Of a DNA stretch of 64,000 nt, positions 53,444 to 58,157 are shown one piece after another. The position numbers and the translations under genes were made by a program. The notes beneath the pieces were generated by a model. The model saw nothing but the letters and a program-made list of their open reading frames with translations, ran no database searches and was not told the origin of the DNA. The DNA is from a virus. Its lineage: Duplodnaviria > Caudoviricetes. The stretch spans positions 1 to 64,000 of the IMG/VR virus record IMGVR_UViG_2636416187_000004. One strand, 5' to 3'. Within the stretch, counting starts at the first letter, position 1. Each line of letters starts with the position of its first letter.

Positions 53444-53640
53444 GCATCCTCCTTGCGCCGCTGACAGGTGTCACGCAGGCGTTTGCAGTAGTGGTTGAAC
53501 TCGTCAGTGGTGATCGCTCCGTCAGTGAAGAGGCGGGTGATCAGCGCCTGTACCAGCAAGCTGATGTCTTCTTCGCCGGCGGGTGCCGACACTCCATCAA
53601 GCGCTTGATCAATCAGGATGTGAGGGCTCAAAACCCACAC
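53440..53640 (-). CDS. Small phage hypothetical protein
   Basis: Coupled ORF; exact start uncertain. Confidence 0.55.
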   Translation of the reverse strand: MWVLSPHILIDQALDGVSAPAGEEDISLLVQALITRLFTDGAITTDEFNHYCKRLRDTCQRRKEDA

Positions 53641-54032
53641 TCCCGCTCAACGCGATCGCTTTCGCGCTTGGCATCTCGGTACTCGTTGGCGTGCACCGCG
53701 ACCAGGTCGCCGGCGAGCGACCGAACGATCTGCGGATCACCGCCGACGGCTTCGATGGCCCAGGTGTGCAGAATCCCGCCGTCTTTCCGCCTGATCAGCT
53801 CGATCAAAATCTTCTCGATGTACCGATCAGGATCCGGGTTCGCGGCCATGTGATCCGCCAGCGCCTGCGGTAAGTGGTCGGCGCTGACCAGGACCTTGCT
53901 TCGGCCTACCGGATTTGGTGCCTCGACGTGGCGCCGATAAAGCAGATCGTCGACCGATTCGGCCAGCCATTCCTGACCTGCCTCTGTTTCGAGAAAGTCG
54001 TCTTCCGGGATGGGCTTGCGTAGAGCTGACAT
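53628..54032 (-). CDS. Phage hypothetical protein
   Basis: GGAG SD before ATG 54032. Confidence 0.65.
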   Translation of the reverse strand: MSALRKPIPEDDFLETEAGQEWLAESVDDLLYRRHVEAPNPVGRSKVLVSADHLPQALADHMAANPDPDRYIEKILIELIRRKDGGILHTWAIEAVGGDPQIVRSLAGDLVAVHANEYRDAKRESDRVERECGF

Positions 54033-54212
54033 GGTCGTCTCCAGGGTGGCGGGGTGTTGATCCAACAAAACTCGGATGCACTCATCCGCTCCGCTGGTTG
54101 CCGTTGGGCGCGGAGGGGAGTGCATCCGAGTGGTGTTGATTAGGTGGGGGAAGCTGATCTTTTTGTATCGGCTGCCGATAAGGCACTGAGATTATTTAAG
54201 GATGATTCATCT

Positions 54213-54548
54213 ATGCGTTTGATTTCGAAAAGCGCCTGTCTGGTTGCTTGCTTTGCGCTCAGTAATTTTGGACAAGCCTTAGCGGCCTATACCACCCGCG
54301 ATGTTGCTATCACTGCAGTTGCGATGGAGCGCATGTGCGCCGAATGGAAGCCCGAGATGAATTACTCTTTGCAGAACCTGATGAGCCTGCCTGAGTTCGC
54401 GCCTAACGCCGATCTGAAGAAAGAAATTGCTGAGGTCGAAAATAACCCAGCCTTTCAAGATGAAATCAGGGAGATTCAGATGCGGGGCACAGGGGATGAG
54501 TTGGCGATCAGGAACATATGCCCAAGCTATGCACCGGTAGCCAAGTAG
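54213..54548 (+). CDS. Moron: small exported protein
   Basis: Signal peptide ending QALAA; two Cys in the mature part. Confidence 0.65.
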   Translation: MRLISKSACLVACFALSNFGQALAAYTTRDVAITAVAMERMCAEWKPEMNYSLQNLMSLPEFAPNADLKKEIAEVENNPAFQDEIREIQMRGTGDELAIRNICPSYAPVAK

Positions 54549-54803
54549 TTGCCCAGGCCCGCTACTGGCGACAGCCTGGGTTGTAGCATCAAATTGTCGA
54601 CGTGCATAAAGGTGGCCTACCGCTTTCGGCCGATGCGCGGTGACATCGACGGCCTACTATCCGCTGCCTGTATGTGTGATGGGCGCCGGCCTTCAGGCTT
54701 GCCGCGCCGCGCGAGGCGGATCAGTTCAACTATTTCATGATGGTCATCCTCCAATGCGCGCCGTTGGCATCTTGGCGGGCGCTCGCCGTTCTCAGTCATC
54801 AAA

Positions 54804-54952
54804 TGGTGCAGATGGCCAGGCGCGAGACCGGCGAGAGCGGACCCTTTCGGGACGACCGCTCGGAGGAGCAACCAGCATTATCTGGCGCCTATTAACCTGC
54901 GTTTCTCTAGGGCCGCCGAAGCGTTCAACCCAGCTTTCAACGCCGCATCTGC
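54804..54952 (-). ncRNA. Putative tRNA-shaped non-coding RNA (149 nt)
   Basis: 7-bp GCAGATG/CATCTGC stem plus ACCA, D-like and T-like arms; folded by eye. Confidence 0.45.
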
Positions 54953-55070
54953 TTGCCGGTTACGTCTCCGGCGCGGGCTTTACCGCCGTGGTGCTTGTTG
55001 CTGGCTTGATTGCGCGCAAGCTACCCCGCGTTGATGCAGGTGGGCGGTTATAGGCCGCAGTTTCGTCCGC

Positions 55071-55202
55071 ATCGGGGTGTGATCTGGCGGCATCGGTGCC
55101 CGCTTGCCCTTGCTGTGGCTCTACGCTTCACAGGCCTCACAGCCTCCCCGTCGCTGACAGGTCGGGACGCCGACGGCAGTTGCCGCCAGATCACACCCCG
55201 AT
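55071..55202. repeat. Perfect 22-bp inverted repeat enclosing 88 bp
   Basis: ATCGGGGTGTGATCTGGCGGCA / TGCCGCCAGATCACACCCCGAT. Confidence 0.85.
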
Positions 55203-55258
55203 ACGCTCTCATAGAGAGGATCGGGCAGTTAACGACAGGCTGTCGTGGCGCTGGTTGT

Positions 55259-55468
55259 TTAGTGCTTAAGCGTGCCGCGCCCGAAAGGTTTGAAGCAGCA
55301 GGCGCAAACTGCGACGCCTGTCTCTTGCTCAATTTCGATGCTGCGTGCAGCTCTACGATAGGCATCTCCGGAAACGCCGGCGCGCTCAGCTTCCTCCGCT
55401 ACCTTTAGCCACTGTGCAATTGCCGGATGTGGCACTGCCTTTTCGGCCAGGTTAAATTCGATTTGCAT
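55259..55468 (-). CDS. Small phage hypothetical protein
   Basis: AGGA SD; CACC motif. Confidence 0.55.
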   Translation of the reverse strand: MQIEFNLAEKAVPHPAIAQWLKVAEEAERAGVSGDAYRRAARSIEIEQETGVAVCACCFKPFGRGTLKH

Positions 55469-55528
55469 CGTCCTACCCTCGGTTGATTTCCCGTCTGGCC
55501 CTGTCGCCAAGGCCAGCCAGTGAAATCG

Positions 55529-55714
55529 TCATGCAGCAGCCTTGCAGTCAGCCGCAGTCATGCGGTGCCCGTCTTCCAGCTCAACCACGCACACGCCGTT
55601 GGTGTAGCCACGTTCCGCGTTGATCCGGTTGGCCTCGCGGATGCATTTGCCCAGGTCTTTGTCGGTGAATACGTGCCGCTCGCCGCGAAGAGTGATTCGA
55701 AGGACCTTGTTCAT
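55529..55714 (-). CDS. Small phage hypothetical protein
   Basis: GGAGG SD; coupled. Confidence 0.6.
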   Translation of the reverse strand: MNKVLRITLRGERHVFTDKDLGKCIREANRINAERGYTNGVCVVELEDGHRMTAADCKAAA

Positions 55715-55929
55715 GCCGCCTCCAAAGCTTGCTGAGCCAACAGCTCAGTCACAGCCTCGTCCGGGGTGCAGCCGTCGGCGTAGAAGTCATGTAGGTCGCT
55801 TTCTTCCTGCGAGCCCAAGGCGACTTGGTGGCCGAGCAGTTGGGATGCCTTGTTGATCCAGCGGTAGTAGGTGCGCTCTTCAGCGTCGGCGCGGCATTCA
55901 TCAGCCGCCATGGTTGCCATGTTGAACAT
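55711..55929 (-). CDS. Small phage hypothetical protein, first pL gene
   Basis: GGAGG SD after a conserved hairpin. Confidence 0.6.
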   Translation of the reverse strand: MFNMATMAADECRADAEERTYYRWINKASQLLGHQVALGSQEESDLHDFYADGCTPDEAVTELLAQQALEAA

Positions 55930-56201
55930 CGTGAATCCCTCCGGTTGTTTTCCCAATGCACCCGTCACCAGGTGCATCAGTGAAAAATTCCGTGTTTCTA
56001 TCCGCCCCATGCTCGGCGCCGCGGTTTCCCCACCTGGCCGGCGTCACACATTTCGTGTTCGGTGTTCTTCGCCGGCTGGCTTGCATGGTTTGGCGTCCTC
56101 CCATATGGGGAGTCCGGCAGGTTCCAGAGCCTGCATGGGGATCGAAGTTTGTGTTTCGCGCTATGCCCGTTTCCGGGGATCGATCCGCGAAGATTCCTGA
56201 C

Positions 56202-56213: not shown

Positions 56214-56266
56214 GCGGATCTCTTGAGGCCCTTCGCAGTAGCTGTGTGTCGCTGCGATGGAGTAAA

Positions 56267-56309
56267 TTTAGCTCAAAGCTAAACATTTGGTCAATAGCTT
56301 TCTGCTAAA
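56267..56309 (-). promoter_or_regulatory. pL/OL of prophage 2
   Basis: TTTAGCTCAAAGCTAAA 56267-83 and AATAGCTTTCTGCTAAA 56293-309; TTGACC on the minus strand. Confidence 0.75.
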
Positions 56310-56466
56310 AAAGTTAGCGTGTGCATATTTCGTTTAGCGGAAAGGCCGTTGGGTGCGTGGTGATTGGAAGATTTCAGGCGCAAAAAAGCCCGCTCTTAGC
56401 GGGCTGGGCAGGGTGCAGGCTGGTATCCTTCAGGGTCACCAATTACGGGCTTTGCGAGCGGTTTAA

Positions 56467-57422: not shown

Positions 57423-58157
57423 CTACCTAGCGTACATGCCCCACCAAAAAACGTGACCAATGATGACGATCTGCTCTTCCTGAATATCTTGGAAGGTGTA
57501 GTCCTCATCCGGATGTTCGTCGCGATTGAAGCTTCGCAAGCGTATTCCGGTCGGTATGCGGTAAAGCTGTTTCACCCTCAACTGGCCATTGTGGTTGATC
57601 GCATAGAGATCACCATCAGTAATTTCGCTGACGCTGGTCACGCCGGTGTTTACGCCAACCGTTGCTCCGTCACGTAGAACCGGGAGCATGCTGTTTCCCC
57701 GAACTGTCACGCACTTGGCATTTGAAAACTGAACACCATTTTGACGAAGACTGCGCTTGCCGAAGCGCAAGAATGAATTTGGGCTTTCCTCAACAGTAAA
57801 TCGACCTGAGCCCGCTGCCAGCTCAACCTCCCTCAGAAACGGAACGCAAATCTCATCGTCCTCTACGGGCGTGGCGTCATCCCAAAGGTGAATGTCGCGT
57901 AATTCTGAGTGAGGCTGACGATGGACTGACTCTGCCTGGATCGCATCGTCACGCACGTTATCCAAATACCCCTTCGGCAAATCCTCCGCTGCCTCAATCC
58001 TGCGCGCGAGCTCATCCCCCAAGTTTCTGACAGGGTTCTTCGACAGAATCTGGCTGAGCACCGACGACGATGTTCCCCATTTCTCTGCACATTCTTTTCG
58101 CTTTCTGTCGCCTGCAAGGGCTTCCAGGTTGCGCTTTCTGATCGCGTAAATATCCAT
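57423..58157 (-). CDS. cI: CI-like repressor (HTH and S24) of prophage 2
   Basis: LAAGSG, GNSMLP, RVK; HTH differs from prophage 1. Confidence 0.92.
   Translation of the reverse strand: MDIYAIRKRNLEALAGDRKRKECAEKWGTSSSVLSQILSKNPVRNLGDELARRIEAAEDLPKGYLDNVRDDAIQAESVHRQPHSELRDIHLWDDATPVEDDEICVPFLREVELAAGSGRFTVEESPNSFLRFGKRSLRQNGVQFSNAKCVTVRGNSMLPVLRDGATVGVNTGVTSVSEITDGDLYAINHNGQLRVKQLYRIPTGIRLRSFNRDEHPDEDYTFQDIQEEQIVIIGHVFWWGMYAR

What the first reader, a model, noticed from the sequence alone, without database searches (positions are those of the whole stretch)
54804..54952. 149-nt tRNA-shaped RNA with an expanded anticodon domain in the early-left transcript of prophage 2
Seen: the minus strand reads GCAGATG-CG-[GCGTT GAAAGCTGGGTTG AACGC]-...-[GAGCGG..CCC GAAA GGG..CCGCTC]-TC-[GCCGG TCTCGCGC CTGGC]-CATCTGC-ACCA. 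This gives a 7-bp acceptor-like stem with an encoded ACCA end, a 2-nt linker, a D-like arm with GG in the loop, a long variable-like arm and a 5-bp T-like arm. A branched ~55-nt domain (CCTA/TAGG, CCAG/CTGG) sits where the anticodon arm should be, and the T loop is non-canonical. Established: RNase P matures tRNA-like phage RNAs such as P4 CI and P1 C4. Inference: this is a processed stable RNA acting as an antisense/immunity RNA, or as a tRNA decoy for anticodon nucleases or synthetases.
Basis: partly seen in the sequence, partly recalled or inferred. Interest (0 to 1): 0.82.

Follow-up and report, generated by a model that had tools for sequence, protein, structure and literature searches.

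The report
Swappable folded RNA cassette in prophage
The 149-base stretch is a real, conserved, self-contained folded RNA unit that Pseudomonas prophages swap in and out of a long gene-free part of their early operon; only its closing stem and last hairpin look like a tRNA, and its job is unknown.

Summary
The sequence is exactly as described. No tRNA, tmRNA or Rfam family matches it, and its folding energy is ordinary (z = -0.24).

Comparative data show a real RNA. I found 41 copies (30 distinct, 79-100% identical) in Pseudomonas prophages, viral contigs and metagenomes. In 39 of 41, homology stops at the two ends of the closing stem. The flanks fall into 11 upstream and 17 downstream classes.

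Covariation supports the closing stem (6 of 7 pairs), the long GNRA-capped arm and the T-like hairpin. There is no anticodon-like loop. ACCA occurs in only 2 of 41 copies.

G·U pairs outnumber A·C by 103 to 7, which puts the RNA on the early-left strand. Frame-shifting indels rule out coding.

Other cassette types share the same 7-bp stem plus abutting 5-bp hairpin "handle".

Best reading: an accessory, exchangeable structured-RNA cassette, probably a stable trans-acting RNA. Processing and function are untested.

This scan has already noted the same array on other DNA (e1-5351162, e1-1938450).

The parts
54804..54952 (-). The cassette ('M5'): a five-helix-junction structured RNA, 148-156 nt in its 30 distinct copies
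   Evidence: Sequence. 41 copies with homology ending at its edges. Alignment A1. Consensus fold and covariation. Covariance model R1 finds exactly one copy in the window and in the whole genome.
54946..54952 (-). P1 5' strand (GCAGAUG), acceptor-like closing stem
   Evidence: Pairs with 54808-54814. 6 of 7 pairs change on both sides (GCAGAAG/CUUCUGC, GUUGAUG/CAUCAAU, UGAUCUG/CAGAUCA).
54899..54943 (-). P2 domain: helix GCGUU/AACGC closing an internal loop (GAAAG / AGA), helix CUGGGU/GCCC(U)AG and a C(UUCG)G-capped tip. It is the most conserved part.
   Evidence: Pair 11/53 shows CG:24, UA:4, UG:2. Most of alignment columns 7-54 are invariant or at least 90% conserved, even in the two most divergent copies, L176 and L181.
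54867..54889 (-). P3: hairpin GGCGCCAG-loop-CUGG(U)UGCU in the position of an anticodon arm. The loop is not conserved.
   Evidence: Loops are AUAAUG, UUUUG, CUUUGG and UUCG in different copies. 86.7% of cells are paired on an imperfect alignment of this variable hairpin.
54835..54861 (-). P4: long arm GAGCGG..CCC-GAAA-GGG..CCGCUC with a GNRA tetraloop
   Evidence: GAGCGG/CCGCUC becomes GACCGG/CCGGUC and GACUGG/CCAGUC. CCC/GGG becomes GCC/GGC in 6 distinct copies. The loop GAAA becomes GGAA in 3 copies.
54815..54832 (-). P5: T-like 5-bp hairpin GCCGG-N8-CYGGC, abutting the P1 3' strand with no spacer
   Evidence: 99.3% of cells are paired, with one double change (UCCGG/CCGGA in L161). The loop is NNUCGYGN, 8 nt.
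54808..54814 (-). P1 3' strand (CAUCUGC)
54804..54807 (-). 3' tail ACCA. Not conserved, and probably not part of the functional unit.
   Evidence: ACCA is in 2 of 41 copies.
54953..55027 (-). Module M4 just upstream. It ends in hairpin GCCGG-AGACGUAA-CCGGC. Context, not part of the cassette.
   Evidence: It is present without M5 in L022, L023 and many viral contigs. L007 shows CUGG/CCAG in place of CCGG/CCGG.
55028..55088 (-). Module M3 (GAUGCGG...CCUGCAUC with an inner hairpin), the most widespread piece of the array
   Evidence: The inner hairpin GCGG-CCUAUAA-CCGC is replaced by CCGC-GAAA-GCGG in L007 and L027.
55068..55205 (-). Clamp: a 20-bp inverted repeat enclosing about 98 nt
   Evidence: Seen. 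In L032 and L033 the arms are unrelated in sequence but still complementary.
55187..55263 (-). Module M1: the conserved 5' piece of the array, starting at the stop codon of ORF 55259-55510(-)
   Evidence: Listed matches of about 87-100% identity to this part (query 628-700) in many of the 125 of 401 genomes that matched any part of the region.
54553..54797 (-). Module M6 downstream, holding SD GGAGGA (54747-54752) and the mini-ORF AUG AAA UAG (54730-54738)
   Evidence: It is joined directly to M3 (L003, L010) or M4 (L022) where M5 is absent. SD-plus-start-stop variants occur in many loci.

Best explanation
M5 is a self-contained structured-RNA cassette, in effect an 'RNA moron'. It is transcribed on the minus strand as part of the early-left (PL-type) transcript of a lambda-like Pseudomonas prophage.

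It folds on its own into a five-helix junction:
- a 7-bp closing stem P1;
- a 2-nt linker;
- a 45-nt, almost invariant P2 domain;
- a variable hairpin P3;
- a GNRA-capped arm P4;
- a 5-bp hairpin P5 that stacks directly on P1.

Phages exchange it horizontally as a unit. It sits among other cassettes that use the same P1+P5 'handle' but carry different interiors.

Shown: the unit, its fold, its strand, its non-coding nature, its accessory distribution and the shared handle.

Inferred: the handle defines or protects the RNA's ends. The most likely route is a 5' cut of RNase P type at G1, with exonuclease trimming back to P1. The invariant P2 domain would then be the surface that a host or phage protein (or RNA) recognises, so that the cassette acts in trans as a stable RNA made early after induction or infection. 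The target is unknown.
For: Unit:
- 41 copies, 39 with homology ending at the P1 edges.
- 11 upstream and 17 downstream flank classes.
- It can follow M4a, M4b or the clamp, and can precede M4c, M6 or M7.
- It is absent between otherwise collinear modules in L003, L010, L022 and L023.

Fold:
- RNAalifold predicts 38 pairs, 12 with compensatory change.
- My fold has 97.1% of 1290 cells paired and 13 pairs with double changes. 0 of 500 shuffles reach any measure. Slid controls give 3-13 double-change cells against 28.

RNA and strand:
- 103 G.U against 7 A.C cells.
- UUCG and GNRA loops are read on this strand only, and GAAA changes to GGAA.
- In 36 of 41 loci, homologues of the window's early-left genes are found, and all are co-oriented with M5.
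- A PL-like promoter lies at 56294-56265(-), below the S24 CI repressor gene.

Not coding: lengths are 148-156 nt with 1-2-nt indels, and no frame is open in all 30.

Accessory: a listed match covering M5 occurs in 4 of 400 other genomes of the genus, against 124 of 400 that match some part of the 701-nt region. There is one copy in the own genome.

Sequence constraint beyond structure: most of columns 7-54 are invariant or at least 90% conserved, while P1, P3 and P4 drift by compensation.

Shared handle:
- 51 GCAGATG-started units lie downstream of M3-like sequence. They include 25 of a 192-nt type, 14 M5 and 6+3 of other types.
- 70 units carry the 3' hairpin-plus-strand motif, in 10 clusters.
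- R1 aligns three other types end to end through P1 and P5 only, at 17-43 bits.

Presence in RNA libraries: contigs of 3210 and 2007 nt from two size-fractionated RNA runs of one sample cover a relative's M1-M5.
Against: - No discrete ~150-nt RNA and no 5' or 3' end has been seen. Only assembled contigs were available, and DNA carry-over in those libraries cannot be excluded.
- The single-sequence fold is no more stable than shuffles (z = -0.24).
- RNase P features are incomplete. RCCA is absent in most copies (ACC in 18 of 41, CCC in 9, ATCA in 10). The nucleotide at -1 is A in 29 of 41. The P5 loop is not a T-loop.
- The 30 sequences fall into a few clades, so compensatory cells are not independent events. 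P2 rests on one covarying pair, seen in four rows of at least two lineages.
- The P3 columns are poorly aligned.
- No partner protein, target or phenotype is known.
- The trans-acting role is an inference from sequence invariance and accessory distribution only.
Confidence: 0.5

Rival explanations
1. A purely cis-acting structural module of the long untranslated stretch. It would stabilise the transcript or punctuate its processing, or make the gene-free RNA refractory to Rho and 3' exonucleases. It would have no function of its own in trans.
For: - It lies in a roughly 700-nt ORF-free chain of hairpin modules inside an operon.
- C-rich unstructured tracts follow it in many loci.
- A terminator-like 11-bp stem plus U tract follows at 54127-54065.
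- RNA contigs of a relative stop 20 and 43 nt after its 3' end in two runs of one sample. This is a weak hint only.
Against: - A generic stabiliser need not keep about 45 nt almost invariant while its stems drift.
- The module is accessory, found in 4 of 400 genomes against 124 of 400 for the region. Operons therefore work without it.
- It appears at different places in the array.
Confidence: 0.25
2. One reading: a tRNA mimic with an encoded CCA end. RNase P would mature it, and it would serve as a decoy for anticodon nucleases or synthetases, or as an antisense immunity RNA like P4 CI or P1 C4.
For: - The geometry is 7-bp stem, 2-nt linker, and 5-bp hairpin abutting the 3' strand. G1-C pairs in 28 of 30 copies, and the next base is A in 31 of 41.
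- RNase P is known to mature phage RNAs lacking a T loop: phi80 M3, P4 CI and P1/P7 C4 (PMC5499578, passage read).
Against: - There is no anticodon-like loop. The P3 loop varies in length (4 to about 9 nt) and is not conserved.
- ACCA is in 2 of 41 copies.
- ARAGORN finds nothing here, and only 4 tRNAs in all 182 sequences, none inside an array.
- There is no Rfam match, even at E up to 10.
- The D-like arm is not supported.
- No complementary target was looked for or found.
Confidence: 0.08
3. An undescribed self-cleaving ribozyme or ligand-binding aptamer. Its conserved P2 and junction core would be catalytic or form a binding pocket, and it would process or sense within the early transcript.
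For: - It is a compact multi-helix junction with an invariant core and variable, covarying peripheral helices.
- It has a GNRA loop that could dock.
- It behaves like a cassette with sharp edges, as small ribozymes do.
Against: - No known ribozyme or riboswitch class matches.
- There is no expression platform, and the downstream context is not constant (17 classes).
- Nothing here bears on cleavage.
Confidence: 0.08
4. A DNA-level element: a miniature mobile element, or a recombination site with 7-bp terminal inverted repeats. RNA structure would be irrelevant.
For: - Presence or absence has sharp edges at an inverted repeat (GCAGATG...CATCTGC).
- The same end motif is shared by different cassettes, and could serve as microhomology for exchange.
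Against: - G.U outnumbers A.C by 103 to 7, so the helices exist on one strand only.
- Internal helices covary.
- The tetraloops are strand-specific.
- The end sequences themselves change while staying complementary.
- There is a single copy per genome.
- No target-site duplication is seen in the junctions.
Confidence: 0.05
5. Part of a protein-coding gene: the 84-aa minus-strand ORF 54617-54871 or the 137-aa plus-strand ORF 54640-55053.
For: Both ORFs exist mechanically.
Against: - Both run across module borders that differ between loci.
- There are 1-2-nt indels, and stops occur in every frame in some copies.
Confidence: 0.01

Closest known systems
DicF sRNA of the dicBF operon, Qin cryptic lambdoid prophage of E. 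coli
   Same: The position and likely biogenesis match. [quoted passage not shown] The RNA is cut out of the polycistronic transcript (PMC5069750, passages read). Here three small ORFs (99, 61 and 83 aa) precede the gene-free array.
   Different: There is no sequence or Rfam match. DicF is a 53-72-nt Hfq-binding antisense RNA. M5 is a 149-nt five-helix junction with no known target, and it is one of many interchangeable cassettes.
RNase P-matured phage RNAs: P4 CI RNA, P1/P7 C4 RNA, phi80 M3 RNA
   Same: These are small stable phage RNAs released from longer transcripts through a tRNA-acceptor-like stem (PMC5499578, passage read).
   Different: The paper describes those RNAs as hairpin-like substrates without a T-loop equivalent. 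M5 has a T-arm-like hairpin and three more arms. There is no Rfam match. I recall that Rfam holds a C4 family, but I did not check its accession. Cleavage of M5 by RNase P is untested.
Phage T4 small RNAs RNAC and RNAD of the tRNA region
   Same: These are stable phage RNAs of tRNA-like context whose roles are unknown (PMC3014915, passage read). That they have tRNA-like termini is my recollection.
   Different: They lie in a tRNA gene cluster of a virulent phage. M5 lies in the early-left operon of temperate phages, with no tRNA genes in the arrays. No sequence comparison was made.
tmRNA, by topology only
   Same: The 5' and 3' ends form an acceptor-like stem with an adjoining T-like arm, and a large insertion replaces the anticodon arm.
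   Different: ARAGORN's tmRNA search finds nothing. There is no G3.U70 (P1 pair 3 is A-U), no tag reading frame, no conserved CCA and no canonical T-loop.
t-elements of plant mitochondrial mRNAs; tRNA-linked RNAs of murine gammaherpesvirus 68
   Same: These use tRNA-like folds inside longer transcripts as handles for tRNA-processing enzymes. The t-elements I saw only in the reference list of PMC5499578. MHV68 is recalled.
   Different: They belong to eukaryotic or organellar systems. They are whole tRNA-like units placed next to the cargo, not a handle wrapped around it.

Membership tests
tRNA | Recognised as a cloverleaf by a tRNA finder or covariance model | tested here: not met
   ARAGORN finds 0 genes in the window. 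There is no Rfam match at gathering score, and none at E up to 10 over 54300-55500.
tRNA | 7-bp acceptor stem, 2-nt linker, and 5-bp T stem abutting the acceptor 3' strand | tested here: met
   P1 is 7 bp, the linker is CG, and P5 is 5 bp with no spacer. Both helices are supported by covariation.
tRNA | Anticodon arm with a conserved 7-nt loop | tested here: not met
   The P3 loop varies in length (4 to about 9 nt) and in sequence, and is capped by UUCG in two copies.
tRNA | 7-nt T loop UUCRANY and a D loop with GG free to pair with it | tested here: not met
   The P5 loop is 8 nt, NNUCGYGN. The GGG of the supposed D loop is paired in helix P2a.
tRNA | 3' CCA end, encoded in gammaproteobacterial tRNA genes (recalled) | tested here: not met
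   ACCA is in 2 of 41 copies.
tmRNA | tRNA-like domain plus tag reading frame, found by ARAGORN or Rfam | tested here: not met
   (aragorn -m on all 182 sequences gave only 4 tRNAs and no tmRNA).
P1/P7 C4 and P4 CI antisense RNAs | Sequence and structure similarity to the catalogued family | tested here: not met
   No Rfam match.
P1/P7 C4 and P4 CI antisense RNAs | 5' end made by RNase P; complementarity to a target in the same operon | not testable with these tools
   Cleavage needs an enzyme assay. I did not search for complementary targets.
DicF-type sRNA processed from a prophage early-left operon | Lies in an untranslated stretch after small promoter-proximal ORFs of the repressor-controlled leftward operon | tested here: met
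   ORFs 55711-56010, 55529-55714 and 55259-55510 (all minus) precede the array. The CI S24 repressor gene is at 57423-58157(-), and a PL-like promoter is at 56294-56265(-). The layout of dicBF comes from PMC5069750.
DicF-type sRNA processed from a prophage early-left operon | Homology to DicF; a discrete processed species | tested here: not met
   No Rfam match. A processed species could not be assessed from contigs.
Known self-cleaving ribozyme and riboswitch classes | Match to a curated covariance model | tested here: not met
Handle-closed cassette family of Pseudomonas prophage early-left RNA arrays (defined in this scan, not in print as far as my searches show) | 7-bp closing stem, short linker, 5' hairpin or helix, variable interior, 5-bp hairpin abutting the 3' strand, on the operon strand inside the gene-free array | tested here: met
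   M5 meets all of these. Other types with the same ends appear.

The most novel reading that the evidence does not exclude
Pseudomonas lambda-like phages carry a library of 'RNA morons'. These are interchangeable structured RNAs, each wrapped in the same tRNA-style handle (a 7-bp stem plus an abutting 5-bp hairpin). Host tRNA-processing enzymes would use the handle to excise the RNAs from the immediate-early transcript. M5's invariant 45-nt P2 domain would be one payload, acting in trans. It could, for example, sequester a host defence or RNA-metabolism protein. That would make this an RNA counterpart of the protein-coding accessory genes in phage early regions.
Probability: 0.2. Interest if true: 0.85.

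Novelty: new variant of a known kind. Interest (0 to 1): 0.64.

Why it matters
Temperate-phage early operons are known mainly for small proteins that take over the host or exclude rivals. Here a long gene-free stretch of such an operon turns out to be a mix-and-match chain of independently folding RNAs.

One of them, M5, has clear covariation support, an almost invariant core and no relative in Rfam. If these cassettes are released and act in trans, they would be a new class of phage accessory function, exchanged horizontally like morons.

The shared tRNA-like handle would then be a natural example of using host tRNA processing to cut several RNAs from one transcript. Even if the cassettes act only in cis, the array is a rich, easily testable set of new RNA folds.

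Tried and rejected
- tRNA and tmRNA finders and Rfam gave nothing at gathering score or at E up to 10.
- Single-sequence folding energy is not informative.
- GenBank phages gave no match with M5 alone and none covering M5 with the 1.5-kb query.
- Expression. The run search found only small shares, 0.06-0.17 for the runs recorded or guessed as RNA. Laying four runs gave contigs only. There was no start, end, strand or level, and no discrete 150-nt species. Parts without cover mean nothing. That two contigs from one sample stop 20 and 43 nt past M5 is at most a weak hint.
- Bona fide tRNA genes occupying cassette slots. ARAGORN on all 182 sequences found 4 tRNAs, all far from the arrays.
- I looked by eye for hammerhead cores, a kink-turn, an 11-nt GAAA receptor in the P2 internal loop, a loop-loop pairing for the P5 loop, and boxA-like sequence in M1. 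Nothing was convincing, and none of these was tested by a tool.
- A protein partner by neighbourhood. The genes flanking M5 vary, and phrog_4801, orf64 and orf66 homologues also follow arrays without M5. No association is claimed.
- Literature. 'tRNA-like' + prophage + Pseudomonas + 'RNase P' returned 0 papers. With sRNA in place of 'RNase P' and 3 of 4 terms required, 670 papers matched and none of the 20 listed was relevant. I found no description of this RNA in those searches.
- The catalogue of 8,495 candidate structured RNAs from IMG/VR (PMC10690425, passages read) may list it in supplementary tables that I could not open.
Full report
**What is there.**
- ARAGORN finds no tRNA or tmRNA anywhere in the window.
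- Rfam 15 gives no match at gathering score in the window.
- At E up to 10 over 54300-55500, Rfam gives five chance-level hits, none on this stretch.
- The minimum-free-energy fold (-57.3 kcal/mol) is no better than dinucleotide shuffles: mean -56.3, sd 3.9, z = -0.24, and 77 of 200 shuffles fold at least as well.

**Setting.** The stretch lies in a roughly 700-nt region (55263 to 54553) with no credible gene.
- Upstream on the same strand are three small ORFs of 99, 61 and 83 aa. Two of them match PHROGs of unknown function.
- Further up are a PL-like promoter (56294-56265) and an S24-type CI repressor gene at 57423-58157.
- Downstream are further small early genes and an exonuclease (phrog_7838).

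**The region is a mosaic of modules.** I searched 401 genomes of the genus with 54560-55260. 125 matched some part, but in pieces. Re-blasting the fetched loci and reading the junctions shows separate modules:
- M1 (55263-55187), conserved;
- a 20-bp clamp, 55205/55068;
- M3 (55088-55028);
- M4 (55027-54953);
- the finding, M5 (54952-54805);
- M6 (54797-54553).

M5 is missing between otherwise collinear modules in several loci. M3 joins M6 directly in L003 and L010. M4 joins M6 in L022. M4 joins other sequence in L023. A listed match covering M5 occurred in only 4 of the 400 other genomes.

**Copies of M5.** Pattern scans found M5 in 5 loci of species-representative genomes, all Pseudomonas. 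They also found it in 23 viral contigs and 8 metagenome contigs.
- blastn of M5 against all 182 sequences held gave 41 copies at 79-100% identity.
- 39 of them span query 1 to 147-149. The other two span 4-142 and 6-140.
- The 45 nt on either side fall into 11 upstream and 17 downstream classes.
- M5 can follow M4a, M4b, another M4 variant or the clamp itself. It can precede M6, an M4-type module, or the C-rich leader of the next gene.
- It is single-copy in its own genome.
- It is absent from 50,697 GenBank phage records.

**Structure.** The 30 distinct copies were aligned with MAFFT (A1, mean column identity 88%). RNAalifold predicts 38 pairs, 12 of them with compensatory changes. Tested with the count of structure pairs:

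|---|---|---|
| Cells paired | 96.6% | 97.1% |
| Pairs with double changes | 11 | 13 |
| Shuffles reaching any measure | 0 of 500 | 0 of 500 |
| Double-change cells, observed | 23 | 28 |
| Double-change cells, slid controls | 3-6 | 3-13 |

The two folds share the well-supported helices:
- P1: GCAGAUG/CAUCUGC, with GCAGAAG/CUUCUGC, GUUGAUG/CAUCAAU and UGAUCUG/CAGAUCA in other copies.
- P4: GAGCGG/CCGCUC, with GACCGG/CCGGUC and GACUGG/CCAGUC. Its tip CCC-GAAA-GGG becomes GCC-GAAA-GGC in six copies. The loop reads GGAA in three copies, so it stays GNRA.
- P5: GCCGG-N8-CCGGC, with UCCGG/CCGGA in one copy.

They differ in the 5' part.
- The same 5' strand paired with columns 50-54 shows CG:24, UA:4, UG:2.

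The better model is therefore a five-helix junction: P1, linker CG, a P2 domain (helix, GAAAG/AGA internal loop, helix, UUCG-capped tip), J2/3, hairpin P3, P4, and P5 abutting P1.

The caveats are real. The sequences form a few clades. P2 rests on one covarying pair, seen in four rows of at least two lineages. P3 is poorly aligned.

**RNA, strand and coding.**
- In the 43 pairs across 30 sequences there are 103 G.U cells and 7 A.C cells. On the other strand the G.U pairs would be mismatches.
- The UUCG and GNRA loops exist only on the minus strand.
- In 36 of 41 loci at least one homologue of the window's early-left genes is present, and every one is co-oriented with M5.
- Copy lengths are 148-156 nt with 1-2-nt indels in loops, and no reading frame is open in all 30.
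- The two mechanical ORFs that cross M5 also cross module borders that differ between loci.

M5 is a non-coding RNA element read in the direction of the operon.

**How tRNA-like is it?**
- The geometry fits a tRNA: a 7-bp closing stem, a 2-nt linker, and a 5-bp hairpin stacked directly on the 3' strand.
- G1-C closes P1 in 28 of 30 copies.
- The rest does not fit. The hairpin in the anticodon position has a loop of varying length (4 to about 9 nt) without conservation. The P5 loop has 8 nt (NNUCGYGN). The 'D-loop GG' is paired.
- The 3' tail is ACCA in only 2 of 41 copies: ACCC 11, ATCA 10, CCCC 9, ACCT 5, ACTC 3, CAAC 1.

**A shared handle.** Other units in these arrays begin with GCAGAUG, have a 2-nt linker and a hairpin, and end with GCCGG-N8-CCGG(C/U)-CAUCUGC. 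Their interiors are unrelated.
- Of 51 GCAGATG-started units downstream of M3-like sequence, 25 are a 192-nt type, 14 are M5, and 6 and 3 belong to two further types.
- A motif search for the 3' handle with a complementary 5' strand found 70 units in 10 clusters.
- A covariance model of M5 (R1) retrieves the 41 M5 copies at 117-184 bits. It also aligns end to end, through P1 and P5 only, to three other types: L031/L054 at 42.9 bits, phage Aurca01 (L002 3395-3533) at 21.2 bits, and L124/L138/L142 at about 17 bits.
- The L031 type also keeps the base of P2 (GCGGCGUKGAAAG...GGAGAMACGC).

**Expression.** Only assembled contigs were available. In two size-fractionated RNA runs of one sample, single contigs cover a relative's M1-M5: 3210 nt at depth 127, and 2007 nt at depth 42.5. 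They stop 43 and 20 nt beyond M5's 3' end. This shows presence in RNA libraries. It is at most a weak hint of a drop after M5. It shows no discrete RNA, no ends and no strand.

**Interpretation.** Shown: a discrete, horizontally exchanged, non-coding, structured RNA cassette on the operon strand, with an almost invariant 45-nt domain and a handle shared with other cassettes.

Inferred:
- M5 is accessory, movable within the array, and keeps sequence (not only pairing) in P2. It is therefore more likely a stand-alone RNA recognised by a specific partner than a generic stabiliser.
- The handle probably serves end formation or protection. RNase P is the obvious candidate, because it matures other phage RNAs through acceptor-like stems (PMC5499578, passage).

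The nearest analogue in position and biogenesis is DicF. It lies in a long untranslated region after three small ORFs of a prophage early-left-type operon and is cut out of the polycistronic RNA (PMC5069750, passages). T4 RNAC and RNAD are another precedent for stable phage RNAs of unknown role (PMC3014915, passage).

**Prior notes and print.** This scan had already noted the same kind of array on other DNA.
- A follow-up (e1-5351162) described a shuffled structured-RNA array that includes a 151-base tRNA-shaped RNA.
- Another follow-up (e1-1938450) described the clamp with swappable cargo.

My analysis was done independently on this window and agrees with them.

My paper searches found no description.

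**Verdict.** The feature is a real and apparently undescribed structured-RNA cassette. Processing and function remain to be tested.

Noticed in passing
window 55068-55205 (-): A 20-bp perfect inverted repeat (the clamp) encloses about 98 nt. In L032 and L033 the arms are replaced by unrelated but still complementary sequence, so the helix is conserved and its sequence is not. The flanking CGYAUCGG / CCGAUGCG extends the helix. AUCGGG can alternatively pair with an upstream CCCGAU in M1.
   Followed up: partly
window 55187-55263 (-): M1 is a 77-nt piece that starts at the stop codon of ORF 55259-55510. Listed matches to it run about 87-100% identical across many genomes of the genus. A 46-nt part matches P. 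aeruginosa phages phi1, phi2, MD8 and others, under genes annotated 'Ydd', hypothetical or NTPase.
   Followed up: partly
window 54730-54752 (-), within M6: A strong SD (GGAGGA) sits 8 nt before AUG AAA UAG. Related loci have AUG UAA, AUG UGA, AUG AAG UAG or AUG GAC UAG behind different hairpins. This is a conserved start-stop or mini-ORF element. I recall that the lambda bar minigenes are of this kind.
   Followed up: no
L035, L042, L019 and about 22 other loci; L002 3395-3533 (phage Aurca01, unannotated gap): Other cassette types (about 192 nt and others) share the closing stem and 3' hairpin with M5.
   Followed up: partly
window 54065-54127 (-): CGGAUGCACUC...GAGUGCAUCCG forms an 11-bp stem followed by AGUUUUGUUGG, which is terminator-like. 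It covers the first codons of the mechanical 165-aa ORF 53628-54125. That ORF's PHROG match starts at residue 37, and it has a better start (GGAGA, 6 nt, AUG) at 54032. The first 31 codons are therefore probably another RNA module.
   Followed up: partly
window 54144-54548 (+): A 134-aa ORF runs against the operon and has a signal-peptide-like segment. It has no Pfam or PHROG match and no homologue in the other 40 M5 loci. It could be a moron or could be spurious.
   Followed up: partly
window 56265-56294 (-) and 56387-56405 (-): A PL-like promoter (TTGACC-18-TAAATT) lies just below a strong hairpin plus T-run terminator that would end the cI transcript.
   Followed up: no
loci (e.g. L032, L004, L172): In many loci M5 is followed by a C-rich, G-poor unstructured tract (ACCCACCCUCCCCCGAC...). 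It looks like a Rho-loading site. The RNA contigs end inside it.
   Followed up: no
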